Shown: in pieces, positions 1,864-64,000 of the stretch | How positions within the stretch are numbered: the stretch's first letter is position 1 | How the letters are laid out: every line of letters starts with the position of its first letter | Source of the DNA: a virus | Lineage: Duplodnaviria; Caudoviricetes | IMG/VR virus record: IMGVR_UViG_3300021431_000124 | Location: 3,107-67,106 of that record | DNA: 64,000 bases | Reading direction: 5' to 3' (one strand) | Notes under the pieces: generated by a model | Databases searched by the model: none | What the model was told of the DNA's origin: nothing | What the model saw: the letters and a program-made list of their open reading frames with translations, nothing else | Position numbers and translations under genes: made by a program

Positions 1864-1995
1864 GTGAACTACCACGCACCTAAAGGTTGCGTGGCTTCTC
1901 GTGCAAGAACATCACTTAACGAAACAAGTCCGTCAGTATGACACTCAGTAAGCGAGCTATCCCCGTCGTCCCGACGGTTCAATATCCTTAGACCT
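1864..1995 (-). ncRNA. Cognate omegaRNA/reRNA scaffold of the TnpB element (guide would be flank ATTGCATGAATTG...)
   Basis: ACCGTCGGGACGACGGG hairpin through the right-end hairpin overlaps the tnpB 3' end, as established for IS200/IS605; 5' limit approximate. Confidence 0.75.
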
Positions 1996-3092
1996 TCACG
2001 GTCTATATTACTTGAGGCATTCAAATCTCTGTCATGGATTTCGCCGCATTCATAGCACGTCCACTCCCTGACTTTCAATGCTTTGATGCCTCTCAATTTT
2101 TTGTTTTGGAATCCACATCCTGAACATAGCTGTGTAGATGGAAAGTAGCGATCTATCTTAACAATAGTTCTACCATACCATTCAGCCTTATATTCAAGCA
2201 TATTCACGAATTTGCTAAACGAAGCGTCAGCGACGGATTTAGCAATGCTGTGGTTTGCTTCCATACCTTTAACAGATAAGTCTTCTAAGCTAATCACTTG
2301 GTTTTCGCGAATCAGCTTAGTTGACAATTTTTGCAAAAAATCTTTTCTCTGATTCTTTATCTTCTGGTGGCACTTAGCCACCTTTATCCTCAGTTTTTCG
2401 TGATTCTTAGAATCTTTAACAGTCTTGGCAAAAGCACGCTGTCGCTTTGCTAACTTTTCTTCTGATTTTCTAAAGAATTTAGGTGTTTGAACGCGTTGTC
2501 CATCAGAGCAGACAATGAAGTCGTGCAGACCTAAATCAATGCCTATATGTTTGTCTGTCTCTGGTAATTTTTGTGTTTCTTTAACCTCGCATAGCACTGA
2601 TGCATAATATTCTCCAGAACGTTCATGCGAAACAACGACGGATTTAATTTCACCTTCGTGCTGTCTATGCTCAATAATTTTAACATAACCAACTTTAGGC
2701 AGTTTTAGCCTGTTGCCATCAAAAAATATCGTACATTTTAAGTCTTTTGATTTCGTTTTTTGGTTGTTCGTTTTATAGCTTAATCTTGAGTGTTTTTTAG
2801 ATTTGAACTGAGGGAAACCAAAGTGTTCAGGATTTTTGAAGAAATTTCGATATGCCTGTTCTAAATTTAGTTGTGCATTGGCAAGAGCTAGGCTGTCAAT
2901 ACTTTTCAGGAATGCTTTGTCGGCTTTGAAACATGCTGGTGTGACATGAAGTGTCTGCTTTGTTGCTTCATAATGCTTCGTTTTGGCATCAAGCATGAGA
3001 TTATAGACCAGTCTTGCACAACCAATATTCTGGTTGATTTTTTCAGCTTGTGCTTTAGTTGGATATAATCTGAATTTGAAAGCCTTTAGCAT
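1869..3092 (-). CDS. tnpB: TnpB RNA-guided endonuclease, catalytic residues intact
   Basis: N-terminal KAFKFRLYPT; RuvC motifs IGIDLG, SLEDL, HDRDLNAS; zinc ribbon CSGC...CYEC. Confidence 0.97.
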   Translation of the reverse strand: MLKAFKFRLYPTKAQAEKINQNIGCARLVYNLMLDAKTKHYEATKQTLHVTPACFKADKAFLKSIDSLALANAQLNLEQAYRNFFKNPEHFGFPQFKSKKHSRLSYKTNNQKTKSKDLKCTIFFDGNRLKLPKVGYVKIIEHRQHEGEIKSVVVSHERSGEYYASVLCEVKETQKLPETDKHIGIDLGLHDFIVCSDGQRVQTPKFFRKSEEKLAKRQRAFAKTVKDSKNHEKLRIKVAKCHQKIKNQRKDFLQKLSTKLIRENQVISLEDLSVKGMEANHSIAKSVADASFSKFVNMLEYKAEWYGRTIVKIDRYFPSTQLCSGCGFQNKKLRGIKALKVREWTCYECGEIHDRDLNASSNIDREGLRILNRRDDGDSSLTECHTDGLVSLSDVLAREATQPLGAW

Positions 3093-3125
3093 GGTGACTA
3101 GACCGAGATACTAGACCAAGAGGAT

Positions 3126-3178
3126 GTGAGGCAGATGAGTGGTCTATGCTCACTTTTCGGACGCGACCCTAGCCTCAC
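3126..3178 (-). promoter_or_regulatory. Structured 5' leader motif upstream of tnpB
   Basis: GTGAGGC-TAGGGTCGCGTCCGAAAAG-hairpin-TGCCTCAC closing stem; similar motif at 44130-44177. Confidence 0.5.
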
Positions 3179-3318
3179 GTTATTATAGATAGCAAAGTTA
3201 TTTTGCTTTTTCAAGCCTTTTATGTTACATTCTAACCCACGGGCTAAAGCCGCGTGGGATTTCTTTTATAAGTGTTAAACAATTATTACAATTTATGCAA
3301 CCAACACAATCTTGGTTA

Positions 3319-57204: not shown

Positions 57205-59139
57205 TTGGCTTCTTTTTTTCAGAGAAAAGCAATGGCAGAAGAACCAAAAAAGAATCCATTAGAAGATGGAAAAGTAGGCACGGGCGGTAATACAAATGTA
57301 ACCAATTTCGCATATATAAATGTCAGTATTGGTGAAGTCCAAATAACAAATATTCCTTTAAATGATAAAGAATATAGTGAACAAGGTATAAAGCATCATG
57401 CTTTGCATGACAGTGGATTCAACAGCTATATAAAATCATTCACATGCAAGCGACAAGTACCTAAACAGGTAAACAGTCATAAGGGATTCTGGCAAGCGTC
57501 TGGTGGTGCTACTGAATGCAATCTGACTATATTTGATCCTACTTTTGTTCAATTTGAAAATCTCATAATGGAATCTGTAAAAAATCAGAAAGTTCACTGC
57601 CTCGTAACTTATGGTATTTCAAAAGGCGGCGGCGGAAAACAACCACCACCATTCAAAATGCACTGCTTTATAAATGAAGCAACAGAAAACATAACAAACG
57701 CTGGCGTCGAATGGTCTTTAAAGATGAGTCCAGTCCCACCACAATGGTTTGATGATTTCCCAGAAGCAAGGGATAAAGATGGAAACGACGTTAAAGAAAC
57801 TGTATATATTTTAGGAAAAGACAACGACAACAAAAACAAATTCAATACTGTGTCAGGTCTTGTTAAAAATTTATTGGAAAAAGAACACTGGCAAGGAATA
57901 GTTGTTACAACAGAAGAACTAACAAAAACACAAAAATTCCCAACAAAAGACTATTCAAATGTTGTTGATTTTATAAATAGAAAACTTTGTTCTATCGCAA
58001 AATGCAAAAATGAAGAATTTGCGGCATCACCTTATCAACTTGTTTATCAATTAGATGGTTCTGTTTTCTTTATGCCTGTTCCTATGACAAGAAAAGATGC
58101 AATCCATCTACTTGAAGATGGAAAAGCCGAAGCATTCGGGAACTACAAAGCGCAGCAAGACACAGCAGAAGATATGGGAAACAAAGAAACCATTGAATCA
58201 TTAAACATGCAGGAATACATGTCCGAAGACAATGGAGCGCTCGTTCTCAAATACGGATTCAAAAATAGCATTGTGCAATCAATGTCTATCAACTTTGATT
58301 CTCGATCTTTTATTTCACAGTTTTACTTCACATTTATATGGTATGACGAGAACAAAAAAGAGCATACACTTGAATTTCCTAAAGTTCCAAAAGATAAAGA
58401 TAAACAAGACCAGAACGCGAAAGTAATAAAACGTAAAATTCCACTTTATGCACATACTGAGGATGATGCAAAACAAGAAGCTCAAATGATAACGAGAAAG
58501 TTACATATCACAAACTATCAGGGGTCGGCAACGTTGATAAATTGGCCATATATAGGGTTGTGCCAGATTGTTAAATTTGAATATCTGATACCTGGTGGCG
58601 CAAAGCAATCTAAAACCGAATCAAACATCAACAAATCCGAAACCGATCTTCAAATCTGGGACGTGAATACCCCAAACGAGAAAGTCAACGTAAACGTCGA
58701 AGCCTACAATGCTTGGTGGAACAAACACGGTGATAAAAGCACACCAAATTCAGAACGCGCTGCAAAAGCTAAAGGCACAAACACAAATCCAGACCAAATC
58801 TCAGATATTTCAGCAACTGAAAAACAAAAATGGCAGGCTATTGTTGCGTCTAAAGAATATCAGGATGAACTTGACAGGGTTAAACTCAAATACAATAGCA
58901 ACGTTTCACTTGCTGGTAATTGGGAAAATTCAAGCACAAGTGACGGAAATCATTTCAACTCAAACATTGGTGTTCCTGCATCACTATCTAGCTGGACTGA
59001 TTCACACAAATCATCCGTCGGATATTATGTACAATCCATCACAGATACAATAAAAGGTGGCCTGCTTACGAGCGAACTTGAACTTATTGGATGGATTAAA
59101 TATGATAATCCGCAACTCGAAGCGGCACTCAAGAAATAA
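57205..59139 (+). CDS. Putative baseplate hub/tail protein (gp27/gpD-like)
   Basis: 644-aa ORF; LTIFDP, GYYVQSITDTIKGGLLTSELEL C-terminal pattern; likely start near 57230. Confidence 0.55.
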   Translation: MASFFQRKAMAEEPKKNPLEDGKVGTGGNTNVTNFAYINVSIGEVQITNIPLNDKEYSEQGIKHHALHDSGFNSYIKSFTCKRQVPKQVNSHKGFWQASGGATECNLTIFDPTFVQFENLIMESVKNQKVHCLVTYGISKGGGGKQPPPFKMHCFINEATENITNAGVEWSLKMSPVPPQWFDDFPEARDKDGNDVKETVYILGKDNDNKNKFNTVSGLVKNLLEKEHWQGIVVTTEELTKTQKFPTKDYSNVVDFINRKLCSIAKCKNEEFAASPYQLVYQLDGSVFFMPVPMTRKDAIHLLEDGKAEAFGNYKAQQDTAEDMGNKETIESLNMQEYMSEDNGALVLKYGFKNSIVQSMSINFDSRSFISQFYFTFIWYDENKKEHTLEFPKVPKDKDKQDQNAKVIKRKIPLYAHTEDDAKQEAQMITRKLHITNYQGSATLINWPYIGLCQIVKFEYLIPGGAKQSKTESNINKSETDLQIWDVNTPNEKVNVNVEAYNAWWNKHGDKSTPNSERAAKAKGTNTNPDQISDISATEKQKWQAIVASKEYQDELDRVKLKYNSNVSLAGNWENSSTSDGNHFNSNIGVPASLSSWTDSHKSSVGYYVQSITDTIKGGLLTSELELIGWIKYDNPQLEAALKK

Positions 59140-59140
59140 C

Positions 59141-59175
59141 AAAAAGCCTAGCACGAGCGCTAGGCTTTTCTTTTC
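59141..59175. terminator. Bidirectional terminator closing the RNA cluster
   Basis: AAAAGCCTAGC / GCTAGGCTTTT. Confidence 0.72.
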
Positions 59176-59271
59176 GTCTCAAAAGACAAAATTGTTCAAA
59201 AGCAAATGGCAAAGCCGCACATGTGTTTTATGCTCAAAAGCAAATCACCCGCACATGCAGTTTCGCCATTA

Positions 59272-59349
59272 TCGTGCTGGCAGGAATCGAACCTGCTATC
59301 AATGTTAATTGCAAATCACATTGACACTAAGTACTTAGCTAAAGCACCA
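59272..59349 (-). ncRNA. tRNA-like RNA with elongated anticodon arm
   Basis: T arm GCAGG-TTCGATT-CCTGC, acceptor TGGTGCT/AGCACGA (one mismatch), arm TCAATGT...ACATTGA. Confidence 0.65.
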
Positions 59350-59369
59350 AACTTTATCAGCACACGAAA

Positions 59370-59448
59370 TGGAGAGACAGAGCTGGGGTCGGCAAGCCGA
59401 TCATACTCTGTTTGTAACAAGCAGAGTTTAATTCTGTTTGTTCTCTCC
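59370..59448 (-). ncRNA. tRNA-sized RNA closed by Ser-like acceptor stem, no T-loop
   Basis: GGAGAGA/TCTCTCC-A with internal CTCTG/CAGAG and TCGGC/GCCGA hairpins. Confidence 0.4.
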
Positions 59449-59450
59449 AA

Positions 59451-59765
59451 TACCAGTGATGAGACTCGAACTCATACTCTCATTAAAGAGAAGCGGATTT
59501 TCTTACTACTCTAAGTTTCCATAGCCCCTTATTATAAGGGTTGTAGTCTGGAACATGTCTTAACCATGCACTATTAAGTGTTTAGGTTGTGGGTGTATGT
59601 TCTCTACACGTTTACAGAATATTAAATTCTGATTTAGCTCGGCGTTATCTTCAACTTTACTTGCTAAGACTTTCACCGAATTAGCCCACATCCCATACAA
59701 AGTTTCCTATTGTATGGCTCAAATAACCAAAAGTCCGCTGTGACTACCAATTCCACCACACTGGC
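59451..59765 (-). tRNA. trnL: tRNA-Leu(UAA) interrupted by group I intron; exons 59765-59731 and 59501-59451
   Basis: Spliced anticodon arm GCGGA-CTT|AAAA-TCCGC, acceptor GCCAGTG/CACTGGT, long variable arm, TTCGAGT loop. Confidence 0.9.
59502..59730 (-). mobile_element. Group I intron (229 nt, no ORF)
   Basis: Follows U34, ends in G; P3 GTGGG/CCCAC, P7 GAACAT/ATGTTC, P/Q elements AATTCGGTGAAA / AACGCCGAGC. Confidence 0.88.
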
Positions 59766-59836
59766 AAAAGTAACTAAGTTGTCTGGTCTTAGTTACTTAT
59801 TACAATCCGCAATTACTTATAGGAGATCTCAGTACT

Positions 59837-59985
59837 TTGAACTACCAACGGACTAAAGACCGTTGGATTCTTCGGAGTCCTCACGAATCTTCCTTTCTGA
59901 TTCAACGAATACTCAGCTATGCCTCTTTTCGGCATAGCGTCCATACCCTCCACAGACCTAAGTTCCCGTAGTTCCTACGGTACTT
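59837..59985 (-). ncRNA. Stand-alone omegaRNA-like scaffold, copy 1 (putative guide AGTACTGAGATCTCC...)
   Basis: ACCGTAGGAACTACGGG 5' hairpin to CCAACGGTCTTTAGTCCGTTGG-TAGTTCAA right-end signature; no tnpB ORF or left end. Confidence 0.75.
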
Positions 59986-60110
59986 TTTTAACCTAAACTA
60001 TGTTAAGTTAAATTTAAATAAGAATTAAACTTGGTTATCGTTTAATTCTGAATCTTATTTACACTAAATAAGATATTGAATCAACCAAAAAGATTTTTAT
60101 TTTTATCTTT

Positions 60111-60226
60111 TTCATCCCACGGACTAAAGCCCATGGGTTTTCTATCAACTATAAATAATTCGATTGCTTGAAGGGAGTGTTCACGATGCTCCCCTTCCAC
60201 GCAACGTTTCCCTACCAGACATAGGG
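60111..60226 (-). ncRNA. Possible third, divergent omegaRNA-like/IS-end element
   Basis: GCGTGGAAGGG...CCCTTCAAGC followed by CCCATGGGCTTTAGTCCGTGGG hairpin. Confidence 0.45.
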
Positions 60227-60229
60227 AAA

Positions 60230-60315
60230 TGTCATACTCAGGACTCGAACCTGAATCTCCCAACAGAGGTGATCAATCCTTACTGCGGGCGTTTACCCTA
60301 CTAAACTTGTATGAC
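60230..60315 (-). ncRNA. tRNA-like RNA with extended bulged anticodon arm (GAT in apical loop)
   Basis: Perfect acceptor GTCATAC/GTATGAC-A, D arm GTTT/AAAC, T arm TCAGG-TTCGAGT-CCTGA. Confidence 0.7.
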
Positions 60316-60319
60316 TTAA

Positions 60320-60406
60320 TGGACGTGACAGGACTCGAACCTATTTCTCCGAATATATTTCTATATTCCTCGCGAGAGTTGTTTTACCATATTAAACTAC
60401 ACGCCC
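60320..60406 (-). ncRNA. tRNA-like RNA with GAAA-capped hairpin in place of anticodon loop
   Basis: Acceptor GGGCGTG/CACGTCC-A, T arm ATAGG-TTCGAGT-CCTGT, hairpin GAATATA-GAAA-TATATTC. Confidence 0.7.
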
Positions 60407-60408
60407 TA

Positions 60409-60528
60409 TGCCGTGTTTGGGAATCGAACCCAAAGTCTGCATCACATCTCCGTATCTTTAGGTATAACTTCACTAAATTGTTTAACCGAAGAATCTTGAC
60501 CCGTTACGACCAACTGAACTTTCACGGC
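60409..60528 (-). ncRNA. tRNA-like RNA with ~68-nt central region
   Basis: Acceptor GCCGTG/CACGGC-A, D-loop AGTTGGT, T arm TTGGG-TTCGATT-CCCAA. Confidence 0.65.
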
Positions 60529-60606
60529 TTAATGCCTGTTTAACGACACAGGCTATCGGGGTTATTTAGTCCTCGAAAACTCGAACATGTCGTATCCCAA
60601 CGGCAA

Positions 60607-60682
60607 TAGCGGTGGTGGGGGTCGAACCCACATAATGACATGGCTTATAAGGCCACCGCATGAACCTTTCTGCTACACCGCT
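60607..60682 (-). tRNA. trnI: tRNA-Ile(UAU)
   Basis: Acceptor AGCGGTG/CACCGCT, anticodon arm GTGGC-CTTATAA-GCCAT, T arm GTGGG-TTCGACC-CCCAC. Confidence 0.8.
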
Positions 60683-60795
60683 AAACAGTAGGTCACTGCA
60701 TTCCTACTTCCCCTCTTTTTGCACCTTATAGAATGATTAACTAGTATCTCATCCGTATGCTTTACAGACCTAAATTAATAGGTGAAGATGGGTAG

Positions 60796-60868
60796 TACAC
60801 CAAGCAAGACTCGAACTTGCGACCCACGGCTTAGAAGACCGTTGCACTTCCAACTGTGCTATTGGTGC
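60796..60868 (-). tRNA. trnR: tRNA-Arg(UCU)
   Basis: Canonical cloverleaf, anticodon loop CTTCTAA. Confidence 0.93.
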
Positions 60869-60895
60869 AAAAGCCAAATTCCTAGGTACATGATA

Positions 60896-61044
60896 TTGAA
60901 CTACCAACGTACTTTAGTCCGTTGGATTCTATGGAATCCTCACGGATATTCCTTTCTGCTTCAACGAATACTCAGCATTGCCGCTTTGCGGCGTAGCGTC
61001 CATACCCTCCACAGACATTAGTTCCCGTAGTTCCTACGGTACTT
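60896..61044 (-). ncRNA. Stand-alone omegaRNA-like scaffold, copy 2 (putative guide TATCATGTACCTAGG...)
   Basis: Same 149-nt scaffold as 59837-59985; 27 nt separate it from the tRNA-Arg 5' end. Confidence 0.75.
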
Positions 61045-61339
61045 AACTTATCAGTATTGCTCCTTCACGAAATTTGACTAAGCAATAAATCATTCCCAAT
61101 ACCATACGTTAGGGCTTTTCCAGGCTCTACGTTTGCTACCCTAATCCTTTTGTTACTTAATTATGCGCACTTACTAAGTAACTCCATTCTTTACTCTCAC
61201 AACTTGCTCTTCGTAGCAATGATTTATTGAATAATAATATGATTAGATACTACGAATCAAGATAGCATCATAGCCGAGGCTACTAGCCCGACACAGAGTT
61301 CATAACCATATTACTAATACTTTATTCAATTTTCAAAGA

Positions 61340-61780
61340 ACTTTGAAAATTTCTAAAGACTCAGGTGTTTTTAGATAGCTGCTCTTTTTCAGCAACAGGA
61401 CATGCACCTAAAACCTCTGTGTTGGTTAGCCTCGCCAACATTGCCCGATTTTAACGGGACTTTAAAATCTCATTGTGTGCTGTTACGCCAAAGTGGAGTG
61501 TAATCCTTACCATTTACGGGGTGATTACCTGCTATCCTCGGAGTGACCGACTCACCTATATACCATTACACTTCACTCTATCAATTTGATATATAGCCTG
61601 ATCCGCCTATTCACTCTTTCGCTAAATTTTACTTTAGCTGATTTGCCATAATGCTAGCTAAACATTAGAGGGCGGTGTAGCTTTAATGCGTTCTACATCT
61701 TGGAAGATATAGAATCAGGATATGCTATTGGCGATTGCCACACTCATTAAGGATGTTTGCTTCTAACCCAACCACAATAA
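61340..61780 (-). ncRNA. GOLLD-like large structured RNA (boundaries approximate)
   Basis: ORF-free, multi-hairpin; segments GTGAGTCGGTCACTC..ATAGCAGG, CCCG..TCGGGCAA, GTTGGCGA..CCAAC resemble GOLLD as recalled; tRNA-cluster context; not confirmed by covariance model. Confidence 0.55.
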
Positions 61781-61786
61781 GATTAA

Positions 61787-61863
61787 CTGGAAATGAAAGA
61801 TTCAAACTTTCATCTAACGACCCCAACAAAGGTCGGTTGTTTTATCAGTTAAACTAATTTCCA
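61787..61863 (-). tRNA. Atypical tRNA-Gln-like gene with enlarged anticodon loop
   Basis: Acceptor TGGAAAT/ATTTCCA with G73 (Gln-like), arm CGACC-TTTGTTGG-GGTCG, T-loop TTTGAAT. Confidence 0.5.
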
Positions 61864-61867
61864 ACAA

Positions 61868-61950
61868 TGGGTAGGGATGGATTTGAACCACCGAACCCGT
61901 AGGGGAGCGGGTTTACAGCCCGCCGCGTTTAGCCACTTCGCTACCTACCC
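61868..61950 (-). tRNA. trnY: tRNA-Tyr(GUA)
   Basis: Canonical class II cloverleaf, loop CTGTAAA. Confidence 0.93.
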
Positions 61951-62059
61951 AAACGGTATGATCATAATCATCACGATTATTCACACAAAATTGACAAAGT
62001 TCTAAAAAGGAGGTTTATTCTATTGTCAAAGATTGTCTGAATCAACCAGACGAATACAT

Positions 62060-62088
62060 TAGATATACAAAATACAAAAACAAGTCAA
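62060..62088 (-). promoter_or_regulatory. Candidate promoter for the RNA cluster
   Basis: TTGACT-17 nt-TATCTA. Confidence 0.55.
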
Positions 62089-62096
62089 CAAAAAAA

Positions 62097-62468
62097 TTAA
62101 TCATCACAAATAATCATTTGCTGGTTGCTAATGTCATCGCACAAGCGGCAATGATAGATAGAAATGCAACTTACACACAAAGTACTTGCCAATGCGTGTT
62201 TACAAAATTTGCAATGATAACAATACACACAATTTGTGCAAAGTTCACAGAAATAACAATTTCTACATGATACTAATACTTTTGAATCATGGCAGTTTGT
62301 GCATTTTTTGGAATCTTTCAAATTTGATGATTTTGAACAAGATACGCAGCAAGTACTATTTTTGCATTTATAACAGCCTACACAACCTTTGCAATTTTTG
62401 CATTGAACACAAGCAATATTATTTGATCTTCTAACAACAAATTTAGAATTATGTTTAAATCGAAACAT
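62097..62468 (-). CDS. Cys-rich CxxC-repeat protein
   Basis: Repeated C-x-x-C units as in the IS-interrupted gene. Confidence 0.7.
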   Translation of the reverse strand: MFRFKHNSKFVVRRSNNIACVQCKNCKGCVGCYKCKNSTCCVSCSKSSNLKDSKKCTNCHDSKVLVSCRNCYFCELCTNCVYCYHCKFCKHALASTLCVSCISIYHCRLCDDISNQQMIICDD

Positions 62469-62499
62469 CAGACACTACAAACAAACACAAAAAGAATAG

Positions 62500-62694
62500 C
62501 TATTTAGACGGCGGATTATATTTAGTAAGCGGTGTATTTGTCTTTCCACAAACAACGCAGGTATGACCTTTGAACTGCTGATTTGAACATCCACTTACAC
62601 GACAGCCGATAAATCCGCAATATTTACACTTATACAGTATAGATGATTTGCATTTTTTACCGTTCTTTTTAATTCCTTGACACTGAAATAGCAT
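62500..62694 (-). CDS. Small Cys-rich zinc-binding protein
   Basis: 64 aa, CKYC and CVVC motifs, GGAG RBS. Confidence 0.6.
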   Translation of the reverse strand: MLFQCQGIKKNGKKCKSSILYKCKYCGFIGCRVSGCSNQQFKGHTCVVCGKTNTPLTKYNPPSK

Positions 62695-62765
62695 AACAAT
62701 CTCCGAGTGAAAAAAAATCCCACTACCGTTTATAGATAGTGGGACAGTTTCAGAATAATCAAAGA

Positions 62766-63980
62766 TTATTCGGCTCGATTATCGACAACATCTGCATGAA
62801 CTTTCTTGACAATAACGCGACCTGATACAGTAAGAATACTGACATTGATCAAGCAACCATTGCCATCGCTTGCAGTGTCAGCACCTTCTGGGACGGAAAC
62901 GACATCGCAAGTCTCAGGTGAAAGTGGATGTTTGCTATCGACAACACCGACAACAACAGCCTTAACTGTTTCTGTTTCACCCCACTGATTTGTGATTGTT
63001 TCGAGTTCGTCAAGTGTCACTGGGCAGCAACCCTCTGGCGCAACGACAGCGGAATTTGGATCAGATGAATCTTCTGGCACACCTGCGACAGCTTTAACGA
63101 CGACAGCAGAAAGTTTCTTGCCTTCTTCTGCAAGAACGATTTCGAGTGATGGCGCATCCCAATCAAGCGTCCATTTCTCTGCACCATCAGACAAACGTTT
63201 GTCTGTGATTGCGACAGGAACTTTGATTGTGCATTCAACATAATCATCAGATGTCGGTGTACATTTAACAAGAACATGGCCAGTAGGCTCAAGTTCTCCG
63301 CTAACGACAAACAAAGGATTAAGAGCTACTGGTGTTGGGTCGCCACCGTCATCAGCAGCACCAAGTTCATCAACCAGTGTAATTGTTAATGCAACATCAT
63401 CATCGCCATCTTTACCAGTGATCCCAGCAGACACGACAGACGCAAGATCATCAGCCTTTAATTTGTCGTCCTCATTGTGACGTGTAGTGGCAACAAGTTC
63501 GCCAGCTTCGGCAGGTGCATTGGCAACGACAGCGGCGAGTTCAAGTGCGTCAACGCCTTCAATTGCAAAGTGTTTGCCGCGCTGGTCTTCACAATTGATA
63601 CAGACACCGAGTTCGATTTCCTGAGTCTCATAACCCTCTGCACTGACAATTGCTTTCACAGTGAACAGACCATTCTCGACGAGGTTCTGAAGCTGTGAAT
63701 CTGCTTTTTCGGCGGGAACAGATGGAAGTTTGACTGCATCGAGTTCACCAGTGGTATTAAAGCCAACGGCATCGGGGACAACCGTAACGGTAACACTTAC
63801 AGTAGAACCATCCTCTGCATCAACAGCTTTCACACAATCTGTTAAACCAGCAACTTTTAGACATCCACCCTCGCCTTTAGCACCTGTCATGTTAGCTTTT
63901 GTCAGATCAGTACCAACGATAATCCAAGGACGAAGGAACATAGCTTCGGCGGGTTCGGCTGTCGAATTGCTAATTTTCAT
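62766..63980 (-). CDS. Acidic beta-rich putative structural/decoration protein
   Basis: 404-aa ORF, V/A/D/E-rich, higher GC with strong codon bias. Confidence 0.6.
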   Translation of the reverse strand: MKISNSTAEPAEAMFLRPWIIVGTDLTKANMTGAKGEGGCLKVAGLTDCVKAVDAEDGSTVSVTVTVVPDAVGFNTTGELDAVKLPSVPAEKADSQLQNLVENGLFTVKAIVSAEGYETQEIELGVCINCEDQRGKHFAIEGVDALELAAVVANAPAEAGELVATTRHNEDDKLKADDLASVVSAGITGKDGDDDVALTITLVDELGAADDGGDPTPVALNPLFVVSGELEPTGHVLVKCTPTSDDYVECTIKVPVAITDKRLSDGAEKWTLDWDAPSLEIVLAEEGKKLSAVVVKAVAGVPEDSSDPNSAVVAPEGCCPVTLDELETITNQWGETETVKAVVVGVVDSKHPLSPETCDVVSVPEGADTASDGNGCLINVSILTVSGRVIVKKVHADVVDNRAE

Positions 63981-64000
63981 CTGTTTCTGTGCTGGACGCT

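What the first reader, a model, noticed from the sequence alone, without database searches (positions are those of the whole stretch)
59766..61044. Stand-alone TnpB omegaRNA-like guide cassettes embedded in a phage tRNA array
Seen: two 149-nt copies (59837-59985, 60896-61044) of an IS200/IS605 right-end/omegaRNA-like scaffold share identical start and end points. They have no tnpB ORF or left end, and differ mainly in loops and one re-paired hairpin. Each is followed by a different sequence (AGTACTGAGATCTCCT; TATCATGTACCTAGGA) and then a tRNA, 27 nt away for tRNA-Arg and 71 nt away (with a hairpin) for tRNA-Leu. Established: TnpB uses the right-end RNA plus the flank as guide, and RNase P cuts tRNA 5' leaders. 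Inference: this is a natural tRNA-processed multiplex guide array that loads a TnpB in trans, against host, competitor phage or self for regulation. The scaffold is clearly diverged from the window's own IS end, so the cognate protein may be encoded elsewhere.
Basis: partly seen in the sequence, partly recalled or inferred. Interest (0 to 1): 0.9.

Follow-up and report, generated by a model that had tools for sequence, protein, structure and literature searches.

The report
Gene-less mini transposons carrying TnpB guide RNAs
The two repeats are real copies of the guide-RNA scaffold of a TnpB transposon that has lost its protein gene, but they are recent mobile insertions into a phage tRNA cluster, a kind of element already described in bacteria, and not a purpose-built tRNA-processed guide array.

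Summary
Two 149-nt copies (59837-59985, 60896-61044, minus strand) are 89% identical and have exact shared ends. They are complete omegaRNA scaffolds plus right ends of an IS200/IS605 TnpB lineage ('lineage 2'). That lineage's gene is intact in one related rumen phage (G002) and broken in another (G001). It is only 33% identical to the window's own TnpB.

- **Copy A has a left end.** It is a 314-nt tnpB-less mini-IS (60150->59837) with TAM TTTAT, a left-end hairpin, a region that aligns with the tnpB upstream (promoter-like) region, a leader palindrome and the scaffold.
- **Both elements are insertions.** A 90-99% identical tRNA array in phage G001 lacks both, giving clean empty sites.
- **tRNAs are not the rule.** Four further copies lie before an HU gene, a SWIM-motif ORF and terminators.
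- **The 'guides' are just flanking DNA.** No targets beyond chance were found.

One positive point: across complete minis the scaffold is 86-92% identical while the rest is 44-68%. The fold is kept, with compensatory changes, so the omegaRNA looks selected for use by a TnpB in trans.

PATE-like elements encoding omegaRNAs are already noted by Meers et al. 2023 (PMC10055086). Verdict: a new member of a known kind, of moderate interest.

The parts
59837..59985 (-). Copy A: complete omegaRNA scaffold and right end (ends GGTAGTTCAA at 59837)
   Evidence: Repeat family D1. Covariance model R1 161 bits. Keeps 40 of 43 consensus pairs. Fold z-score -4.2.
59821..59836 (-). Flank read as 'guide' A (AGTACTGAGATCTCCT); this is native array spacer
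   Evidence: The same spacer continues in G001 at the empty site (TTTAT|AGATTGAGATCTCC). No other match in the window. Matches in G000-G002 are at control level.
59986..60021 (-). AT-rich spacer between the leader palindrome and the scaffold; variable among copies
   Evidence: Alignment of the four complete minis.
60022..60048 (-). 27-nt palindrome GAATTAAACGATAACCAAGTTTAATTC. Its 32-nt block has a single A/G difference across the four complete minis. Probably a leader stem-loop.
   Evidence: Occurs only inside minis in G000 and G001. Aligns with the hairpin-containing 5' UTR of lineage-2 tnpB.
60049..60115 (-). Region that aligns with the tnpB upstream (promoter-like) region (TTGATT ... TATCT-type box)
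   Evidence: Alignment of mini 5' parts with the left-end-to-ATG regions of four TnpB ISs. The promoter role is inferred; the generic scan was not above chance.
60116..60137 (-). Left-end subterminal hairpin CCCATGGGCTTTAGTCCGTGGG
   Evidence: Repeat family D3. Like the resident IS left-end hairpin at about 3238-3260. Also present in minis G1b and L043.
60138..60150 (-). Left terminus of mini-IS A (AGTTGATAGAAAA)
   Evidence: Boundary set by the G001 empty site. An AG shared by both junctions leaves a 2-nt ambiguity.
60151..60155 (-). Target-adjacent motif TTTAT 5' of mini-IS A
   Evidence: TTTAT, TTTAT, TTTAT and TCTAT precede the four complete minis.
60896..61044 (-). Copy B: scaffold and right end only; no left end, no aligned upstream region, no palindrome
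   Evidence: R1 172 bits. G001 is contiguous across the site. Keeps 42 of 43 pairs.
60880..60895 (-). Flank read as 'guide' B (TATCATGTACCTAGGA); this is native array spacer
   Evidence: G001:194292-194307 reads TGTTATGTACCTAGGA at the empty site (2 mismatches).
60795..60868 (-). tRNA-Arg(TCT), 27 nt downstream of copy B
   Evidence: ARAGORN. Rfam 66.9 bits.
   Evidence: 5' end read. Rfam Intron_gpI at 59525-59740, 37.5 bits, below the cut-off. Same arrangement in G001.
1864..3274 (-). Resident TnpB-only IS (lineage 1): TAM TTTAA at 3275-3279, tnpB at 1869-3092, right end finishing GGTAGTTCAC at 1864
   Evidence: Pfam OrfB_IS605, Cas12f1-like_TNB and HTH_OrfB_IS605. Ends read. Left-end comparison with G001. 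R1 23 bits on 1864-1980.

Best explanation
The two repeats belong to a small family of non-autonomous IS200/IS605 elements (PATE-like mini-ISs). They arose from a TnpB-only insertion sequence ('lineage 2') by deletion of almost the whole tnpB gene.

What remains in a complete mini (copy A, 314 nt, 60150->59837) is:
- the left-end hairpin, sitting 3' of a TTTAT target motif;
- a region that aligns with the tnpB upstream (promoter-like) region;
- a conserved leader palindrome;
- the full 147-149-nt omegaRNA scaffold, which ends at the transposon right end.

Copy B keeps only the scaffold and right end.

Both landed in ORF-free spacers of a tRNA array, in the direction of transcription. Nearness to tRNAs is incidental. 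As in every IS605-type element, the 'guide' is whatever DNA follows the right end. Its natural target is therefore the element's own empty site (TAM plus flank), not a host or competitor gene.

Shown here: homology, boundaries, empty sites, copies at unrelated sites, and scaffold-specific conservation with a conserved fold.

Inferred: the RNA is made, from the element's own promoter or by read-through of the array. It is loaded by a lineage-2-type TnpB supplied in trans, which cuts empty sites so that recombination restores or spreads the mini. A Y1 TnpA supplied in trans moves complete minis. Copy B can no longer move.
For: (1) Homology.
- Model R1 scores the six minis at 161-175 bits and the 3' ends of lineage-2 tnpB at 135-142 bits (G002 intact, G001 internally deleted). 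Lineage-1 right ends score 23-31 bits (alignments).
- The G002 protein is a TnpB by Pfam and is 33% identical to the resident one.

(2) Fold.
- RNAalifold gives 43 pairs, 16 with compensatory changes, including a long-range GAACU/AGUUC helix closing the scaffold.
- Every sequence keeps 40-43 of 43 pairs.
- Invariant G-U pairs put the structure on the minus strand of the window.

(3) Mobility.
- G001:194056-195619 is a 90-99% identical tRNA array without either element.
- Six copies have six unrelated flanks: two tRNAs, an HU gene, a SWIM-motif ORF and two terminators.
- Three of four complete minis follow TTTAT and the fourth follows TCTAT.

(4) Selection.
- In the four complete minis the scaffold is 86-92% identical, while the left-end/spacer part is 44-68%.

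(5) Transposase.
- G001 encodes a Y1 TnpA (115 bits). The hairpin beside it, CCCACGGGCTAAAGCCCGTGGG, is of the same type as these ends.

(6) Orientation and RNA.
- All six copies are co-oriented with their neighbours.
- Contigs from two RNA libraries of two studies run from upstream DNA 41 nt into scaffold B.

(7) Precedent.
- Meers et al. 2023 state that PATEs often encode omegaRNAs that must be used in trans by TnpB (PMC10055086).
Against: - No lineage-2 TnpB and no TnpA are seen in the about 71.6 kb known for this phage. That is the 67,106-nt record plus 4,474 nt from an identical metagenome contig. All three TnpB genes or fragments seen are lineage 1, whose own scaffold is only remotely similar.
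- Copy B has no left end and follows GTTAA (TTAAT in G001), not TTTAT. Its origin as a scaffold-only insertion is unexplained.
- Copy A has three broken pairs.
- Expression, processing and TnpB binding are untested.
- Scaffold conservation could partly reflect gene conversion between copies rather than selection on the RNA.
Confidence: 0.75

Rival explanations
1. First reader's model. The phage maintains a natural multiplex guide array in which RNase P/Z cutting of the neighbouring tRNAs releases two omegaRNAs. Their guides direct a trans TnpB against the host, a competitor phage or the phage itself.
For: - Both scaffolds are co-oriented with, and 27 and 71 nt upstream of, tRNA genes in one array.
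- The scaffolds look selected.
- RNA-library contigs enter scaffold B from upstream.
- RNase P cutting of tRNA leaders is established knowledge.
Against: - The 90-99% identical array in G001 has neither element.
- The four other copies are not next to tRNAs.
- Copy A is a whole mini-IS with a left end and TAM.
- The guide sequences are the native spacer. Their only notable relative is the G001 empty site; other matches equal the reversed-pattern control, and no exact 20-mer exists in IMG/VR.
- The donor joint of B lacks the TTTAT motif.
Confidence: 0.06
2. Inert relics. The copies are decaying right ends of dead transposons with no present RNA function, and survive only because the tRNA spacers tolerate junk.
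For: - No cognate TnpB or TnpA in the known part of this phage.
- Copy B is truncated.
- G001 also holds a further, degenerate right-end remnant (131484-131615, 21.5 bits) and a broken lineage-2 tnpB.
Against: - The scaffold is 86-92% identical across phages while the adjoining 150-170 nt of the same element is 44-68%.
- 40-43 of 43 pairs are kept in every copy.
- TnpA needs only the terminal hairpin region (established for IS608), not 147 nt.
Confidence: 0.13
3. Exapted expression leaders. The minis act as portable promoter and structured 5' leader cassettes that drive or stabilise the downstream gene (tRNAs, HU, a SWIM-motif ORF), independently of TnpB.
For: - All six copies are co-oriented with the downstream gene.
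- Two end 24 and 11 nt before a start codon.
- Complete minis keep a region that aligns with the tnpB upstream region and a strictly conserved palindrome.
Against: - Two copies are followed directly by terminators.
- G001 has the same tRNA genes without the elements.
- Copy B lacks the aligned upstream region and the palindrome.
- Conservation is centred on the omegaRNA fold shared with tnpB-linked copies.
Confidence: 0.06

Closest known systems
PATE-like non-autonomous IS200/IS605 elements that encode omegaRNAs (Geobacillus stearothermophilus, Meers et al. 2023, PMC10055086; the PATE concept is from haloarchaea, PMC3119063)
   Same: - Left and right ends like those of co-resident TnpB ISs, and no protein gene.
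- A retained omegaRNA that would need a TnpB in trans.
- Mobilisation by a TnpA in trans.
- Insertion 3' of a short TAM without a duplication.
   Different: - Found here in rumen phage genomes, inside a tRNA array.
- The cognate TnpB lineage is not seen in the same genome.
- One copy (B) is scaffold-only.
- A strictly conserved leader palindrome of unknown role.
Canonical TnpB omegaRNA/reRNA of IS605-type elements (ISDra2; Karvelis 2021 and Altae-Tran 2021, cited from my own knowledge)
   Same: - A scaffold of about 150 nt overlapping the 3' end of tnpB and ending at the right end.
- The guide is the flank.
- A multi-stem fold with a long-range closing helix.
   Different: - The tnpB reading frame is gone; the former C-terminal coding sequence now carries stops.
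- Transcription must come from the retained upstream region or from read-through of the array.
Engineered tRNA-gRNA arrays and T4 SegB homing of the tRNA region (Brok-Volchanskaya 2008, cited in PMC13565253)
   Same: - Guide-like RNAs flanked by tRNAs could be trimmed by RNase P/Z.
- In T4, a homing nuclease in a phage tRNA region biases inheritance of that region.
   Different: - There is no conserved scaffold-tRNA pairing here.
- No evidence of processing.
- No nuclease gene in the array.

Membership tests
IS200/IS605 non-autonomous mini-element (PATE-like) | Left and right ends with subterminal hairpins like those of a protein-coding IS of the family | tested here: met
   Copy A: the left-end hairpin (60116-60137) resembles the resident left end (about 3238-3260), and the right-end hairpin plus GGTAGTTCA is shared with five TnpB ISs. 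Copy B: right end only, so the feature is not met for B.
IS200/IS605 non-autonomous mini-element (PATE-like) | No protein-coding gene between the ends | tested here: met
   No ORF of 80 aa or more lies within 59837-60150 or 60896-61044. The former tnpB frame carries stops, read.
IS200/IS605 non-autonomous mini-element (PATE-like) | Insertion 3' of a conserved TAM with no target duplication, shown by an empty site | tested here: met
   Site A: G001 reads TTTAT|AGATTGAGATC, contiguous. TTTAT (three times) and TCTAT precede the four complete minis. Site B: the left flank is GTTAA (TTAAT in G001), so the result is inconclusive for B.
IS200/IS605 non-autonomous mini-element (PATE-like) | Several copies at unrelated sites | tested here: met
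   Six copies with six different flanks, in two phages and two metagenome contigs.
IS200/IS605 non-autonomous mini-element (PATE-like) | A Y1 TnpA available in trans | tested here: inconclusive
   Present in G001 (115 bits, with a matching hairpin beside it). Absent from the 67-kb G000 record, which is incomplete.
TnpB omegaRNA | Homologous to the 3' end of a tnpB gene and ending at the right end | tested here: met
   R1 scores 135-142 bits on the lineage-2 tnpB 3' ends. Alignment A2.
TnpB omegaRNA | Conserved secondary structure supported by covariation | tested here: met
   43 pairs, 16 with changes on both sides. 40-43 of 43 pairs kept. Only eight sequences, six of them close, so the power is modest.
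TnpB omegaRNA | Transcribed, 5'-processed and bound by a TnpB that then cuts TAM-adjacent targets | not testable with these tools
   The only evidence is RNA-library contigs reaching 41 nt into scaffold B. No strand, ends or binding data.
   The G001 array lacks both scaffolds. The other copies are not beside tRNAs.
   Hosts could not be searched because the host is unknown.

The most novel reading that the evidence does not exclude
The omegaRNA-only minis act as an RNA-guided homing drive for the phage tRNA module. In mixed infections, a TnpB supplied by any co-resident IS loads the array-transcribed scaffolds, which tRNA processing may trim. It cuts the empty TTTAT-adjacent site in a rival phage's array, and repair copies the mini together with the flanking tRNA genes. 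This would explain why the array is 90-99% identical between otherwise dissimilar phages. It would be an RNA-guided counterpart of T4 SegB.
Probability: 0.1. Interest if true: 0.7.

Novelty: new member of a known kind. Interest (0 to 1): 0.35.

Why it matters
This is a clean natural case of guide-RNA genes that have shed their nuclease yet stay under constraint, with defined boundaries, a TAM, empty sites and the candidate partner proteins (a lineage-2 TnpB in G002 and a Y1 TnpA in G001). That makes the idea of omegaRNA 'hitch-hikers' that use TnpB in trans directly testable in a phage setting. It also shows that rumen phages carry a full IS200/IS605 set: tnpA-only elements, tnpB-only elements, minis and relics. 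It does not reveal a new kind of system, and the attractive tRNA-array idea is not borne out.

Tried and rejected
- **Rfam.** No family matches the scaffolds, at gathering scores or at E up to 10. The weak RAGATH-18, Ref70 and HPnc0580 hits are far below their cut-offs.
- **Phage GenBank collection.** Only tRNA matches.
- **Reference prokaryote genomes.** No match to two scaffold patterns, so no host or autonomous source was found.
- **IMG/VR.** Only G001 and G002.
- **Guide targets.** Nothing beyond chance, apart from the syntenic empty site.
- **Promoter and terminator scan.** Fewer promoter-like sites than in shuffles, so uninformative.
- **RNA libraries.** Contigs of four metatranscriptome runs cover only 61004/61062-61306, plus tRNA look-alikes. 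The rest of scaffold B and all of scaffold A are without cover, which proves nothing either way.
- **A third partial repeat.** 60752-60776 (76% over 25 nt) is not supported by the covariance model.
- **The 37-kb metagenome record behind L041.** Trying to reach it failed because the record is not held.
- **Origin of copy B.** I considered an RNA-mediated (reverse-transcribed omegaRNA) origin because the insert is exactly the scaffold. I have no evidence for it. I think a deletion of the left half of a complete mini that had inserted after TTAAT is more likely, but this is unproven.

Full report
**1. The observation**

The window is bases 3107-67106 of a 67,106-nt IMG/VR virus record, estimated 86% complete. 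It comes from ruminant-type gut samples.

The repeat finder reports a 149-nt direct repeat at 59837-59985 and 60896-61044, 89% identical. A search of the whole record finds only these two full copies. All six ARAGORN tRNAs of the array lie on the minus strand, and the repeats read sensibly on that strand.

Both copies begin at (A)AGTACCGTAGG and end at GGTAGTTCAA, after which the sequences diverge. The stated distances are correct: 27 nt to tRNA-Arg(TCT), and 71 nt to a tRNA-Leu-like gene that carries a sub-threshold group I intron hit. Each copy folds much better than shuffled controls (z -3.8 and -4.2).

**2. What the units are**

The resident TnpB (1869-3092, minus strand; Pfam OrfB_IS605, TNB and HTH domains) ends in a hairpin followed by GGTAGTTCAC. 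The same terminal motif closes both repeats and every TnpB IS found in two related phages.

Exact-pattern scans brought in these further sequences:
- G001, a 252-kb phage with two further copies of the unit.
- G002, a 228-kb phage.
- Two metagenome contigs with one copy each, L040 and L043.

The closest relatives of the 149-nt unit are the 3' ends of a second TnpB lineage. That lineage is intact in G002 (450-aa ORF, TnpB by Pfam, 33% identical to the resident protein). It is internally deleted in G001.

A covariance model built from the alignment scores as follows:

| Sequence class | R1 score (bits) |
|---|---|
| Six minis | 161-175 |
| Lineage-2 tnpB 3' ends | 135-142 |
| Lineage-1 right ends, including the window's | 23-31 |

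The consensus fold has 43 pairs, 16 of them with compensatory changes. It includes a long-range GAACU/AGUUC helix that ties the 5' region to the right end. All eight sequences keep 40-43 of the 43 pairs.

The unit is therefore a complete omegaRNA scaffold plus right end, descended from the last ~45 codons of a tnpB gene. That frame now contains stops (read).

**3. Copy A is a whole mini-IS**

Aligning the DNA upstream of the copies shows that A, G1a, G1b and L043 share a further 130-170 nt:
- a short terminus;
- a left-end hairpin, in the window at 60116-60137, like the resident left-end hairpin at about 3238-3260;
- an A-rich stretch that aligns with the upstream (promoter-like) region of the TnpB ISs;
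- a 32-nt block with the palindrome GAATTAAACGATAACCAAGTTTAATTC, which shows a single A/G difference across the four;
- a variable AT-rich spacer.

Three of the four complete minis follow TTTAT and the fourth follows TCTAT. The palindrome occurs nowhere else in G000 or G001, and not at all in G002.

**4. Both copies are insertions**

G001 carries the same tRNA array (G001:194056-195619, 90-99% identical in the shared blocks), but neither element. The junctions read as follows:

| Site | G001 (empty) | Window (filled) |
|---|---|---|
| A | ...GAATTATTTAT\|AGATTGAGATCTCC... | ...TTTAT[314 nt]AGTACTGAGATCTCC... |
| B | ...ACTGACAATTAAT\|TGTTATGTACCTAGG... | ...ACTGATAAGTTAA[149 nt]TATCATGTACCTAGG... 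|

Outside the array the two phages are barely alike at DNA level, so the array is a shared module.

The other four copies sit elsewhere:
- 24 nt before an HU gene (G1a);
- 11 nt before a SWIM-motif ORF (G1b);
- before terminators (L040, L043).

All six are co-oriented with local genes. There is no conserved link to tRNAs.

**5. Is the RNA still wanted?**

Among the four complete minis the scaffold is 86-92% identical, whereas the rest of the same element is 44-68% identical apart from the palindrome block. TnpA needs only the terminal hairpin region (established for IS608). Constraint over all 147 nt, with the fold kept, therefore points to selection on the omegaRNA.

This fits the remark of Meers et al. 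2023 that PATEs often encode omegaRNAs that must be used in trans by TnpB proteins of other ISs (PMC10055086).

A transposase for the family exists in G001: a Y1 TnpA (115 bits) with a hairpin of the same type beside it.

In this phage, however, no lineage-2 TnpB and no TnpA were found. The record holds the resident lineage-1 TnpB and the first 30 codons of another at its left edge. An identical metagenome contig extends 4,474 nt past the window's end and holds a third gene, 62% identical to the resident. The genome is incomplete, so the partner may lie elsewhere, in the host or in a co-infecting phage.

**6. Guides and targets**

Neither 16-mer recurs in the window. In G000-G002, matches with up to 3 mismatches equal the reversed-pattern control, except for the syntenic empty site of B (2 mismatches). 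No exact 20-mer occurs in IMG/VR.

This is what the ordinary IS605 logic predicts: the guide specifies the element's own empty site. The donor joint of B lacks TTTAT, so even that role is doubtful for B.

**7. Expression**

Contigs from four metatranscriptome runs (three studies) match 61004/61062-61306 at 100%. In two runs they cross from the upstream spacer 41 nt into scaffold B. Strand, ends and level cannot be read from contigs, so this is only a weak hint that transcription enters B.

**8. Open points**

Copy B is scaffold-only. In two complete minis (G1a, L043) the scaffold is preceded by ATTAT, which resembles the TAM. G001 has TTAAT at the B site. A complete mini inserted after TTAAT and then losing its left half between the two similar motifs would give the present sequence. 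This is inference only.

Hairpin loops are flipped between copies: the right-end hairpin of B, the left-end hairpin of L043, and AAA versus TTT in the second stem. This is a DNA-level palindrome inversion and leaves the stems intact.

**9. Verdict**

The repeats are real and correctly recognised as TnpB right-end/omegaRNA scaffolds without a nuclease gene. They are PATE-like mobile elements, one complete and one truncated, recently inserted into a tRNA array. They are probably kept functional as trans-used omegaRNA genes.

The tRNA-processed multiplex guide array is not supported. This is a new member of a known kind and of moderate interest.

Noticed in passing
window 61004-61306 (core 61084-61225): An ORF-free stretch just upstream of copy B is the only part of the 2.8-kb region matched at 100% identity by RNA-library contigs, in four runs of three studies. 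A 142-nt core is 81% conserved in G002, where it sits between tRNA-Tyr and another tRNA, and is absent from G001. No Rfam match, and fold z-scores are unremarkable. Probably a stable phage RNA of unknown kind.
   Followed up: partly
window 1864-3279: The resident TnpB IS interrupts a small Cys-rich gene made of CxxC repeats. Removing 3274->1864 after the TAM TTTAA joins TTA A|AT TGC in frame and restores the CxxC spacing, so the insertion looks recent and precise.
   Followed up: partly
window 59000-62000 against G001:194056-195619: The tRNA array, including the intron-bearing tRNA-Leu, is 90-99% identical between two phages that otherwise share almost no DNA similarity. G001 has an extra tRNA-Val. 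The array looks like an exchanged module.
   Followed up: partly
L050 (G001:185873-186235): An IS200-type Y1 TnpA gene in the 252-kb phage. Just downstream is a CCCACGGGCTAAAGCCCGTGGG hairpin of the same type as the TnpB-IS and mini-IS ends.
   Followed up: partly
L041:1-4474 (beyond the window's right end): A metagenome contig 100% identical to window 60201-64000 continues 4.5 kb further. It holds a third TnpB (395 aa, 62% identical to the resident). Its right-end tip plus flank (GGGTAGTTCA[C/T]ATGATTAAGAAAAC...) is tandemly duplicated about 90 nt downstream.
   Followed up: no
window 60896-60925; L043 left-end hairpin; alignment A2 columns 58-64: The loops of three different palindromic hairpins are inverted between copies (ACTAAAGT/TCTTTAGT, AAA/TTT) while the stems are unchanged. 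This suggests frequent hairpin flipping in these elements.
   Followed up: no
window 60229-60317: A tRNA-like gene with good acceptor and T arms that ARAGORN and Rfam do not call. It sits next to the odd 87-nt tRNA-Arg(GCG).
   Followed up: no
L022 (G002:21043-22185 region): The only intact lineage-2 TnpB has a truncated left end: only the 3' arm of the hairpin remains, next to the stop codon of the upstream gene. Its ORF reads through the right end into the flank. The element looks immobilised but the gene is kept.
   Followed up: no
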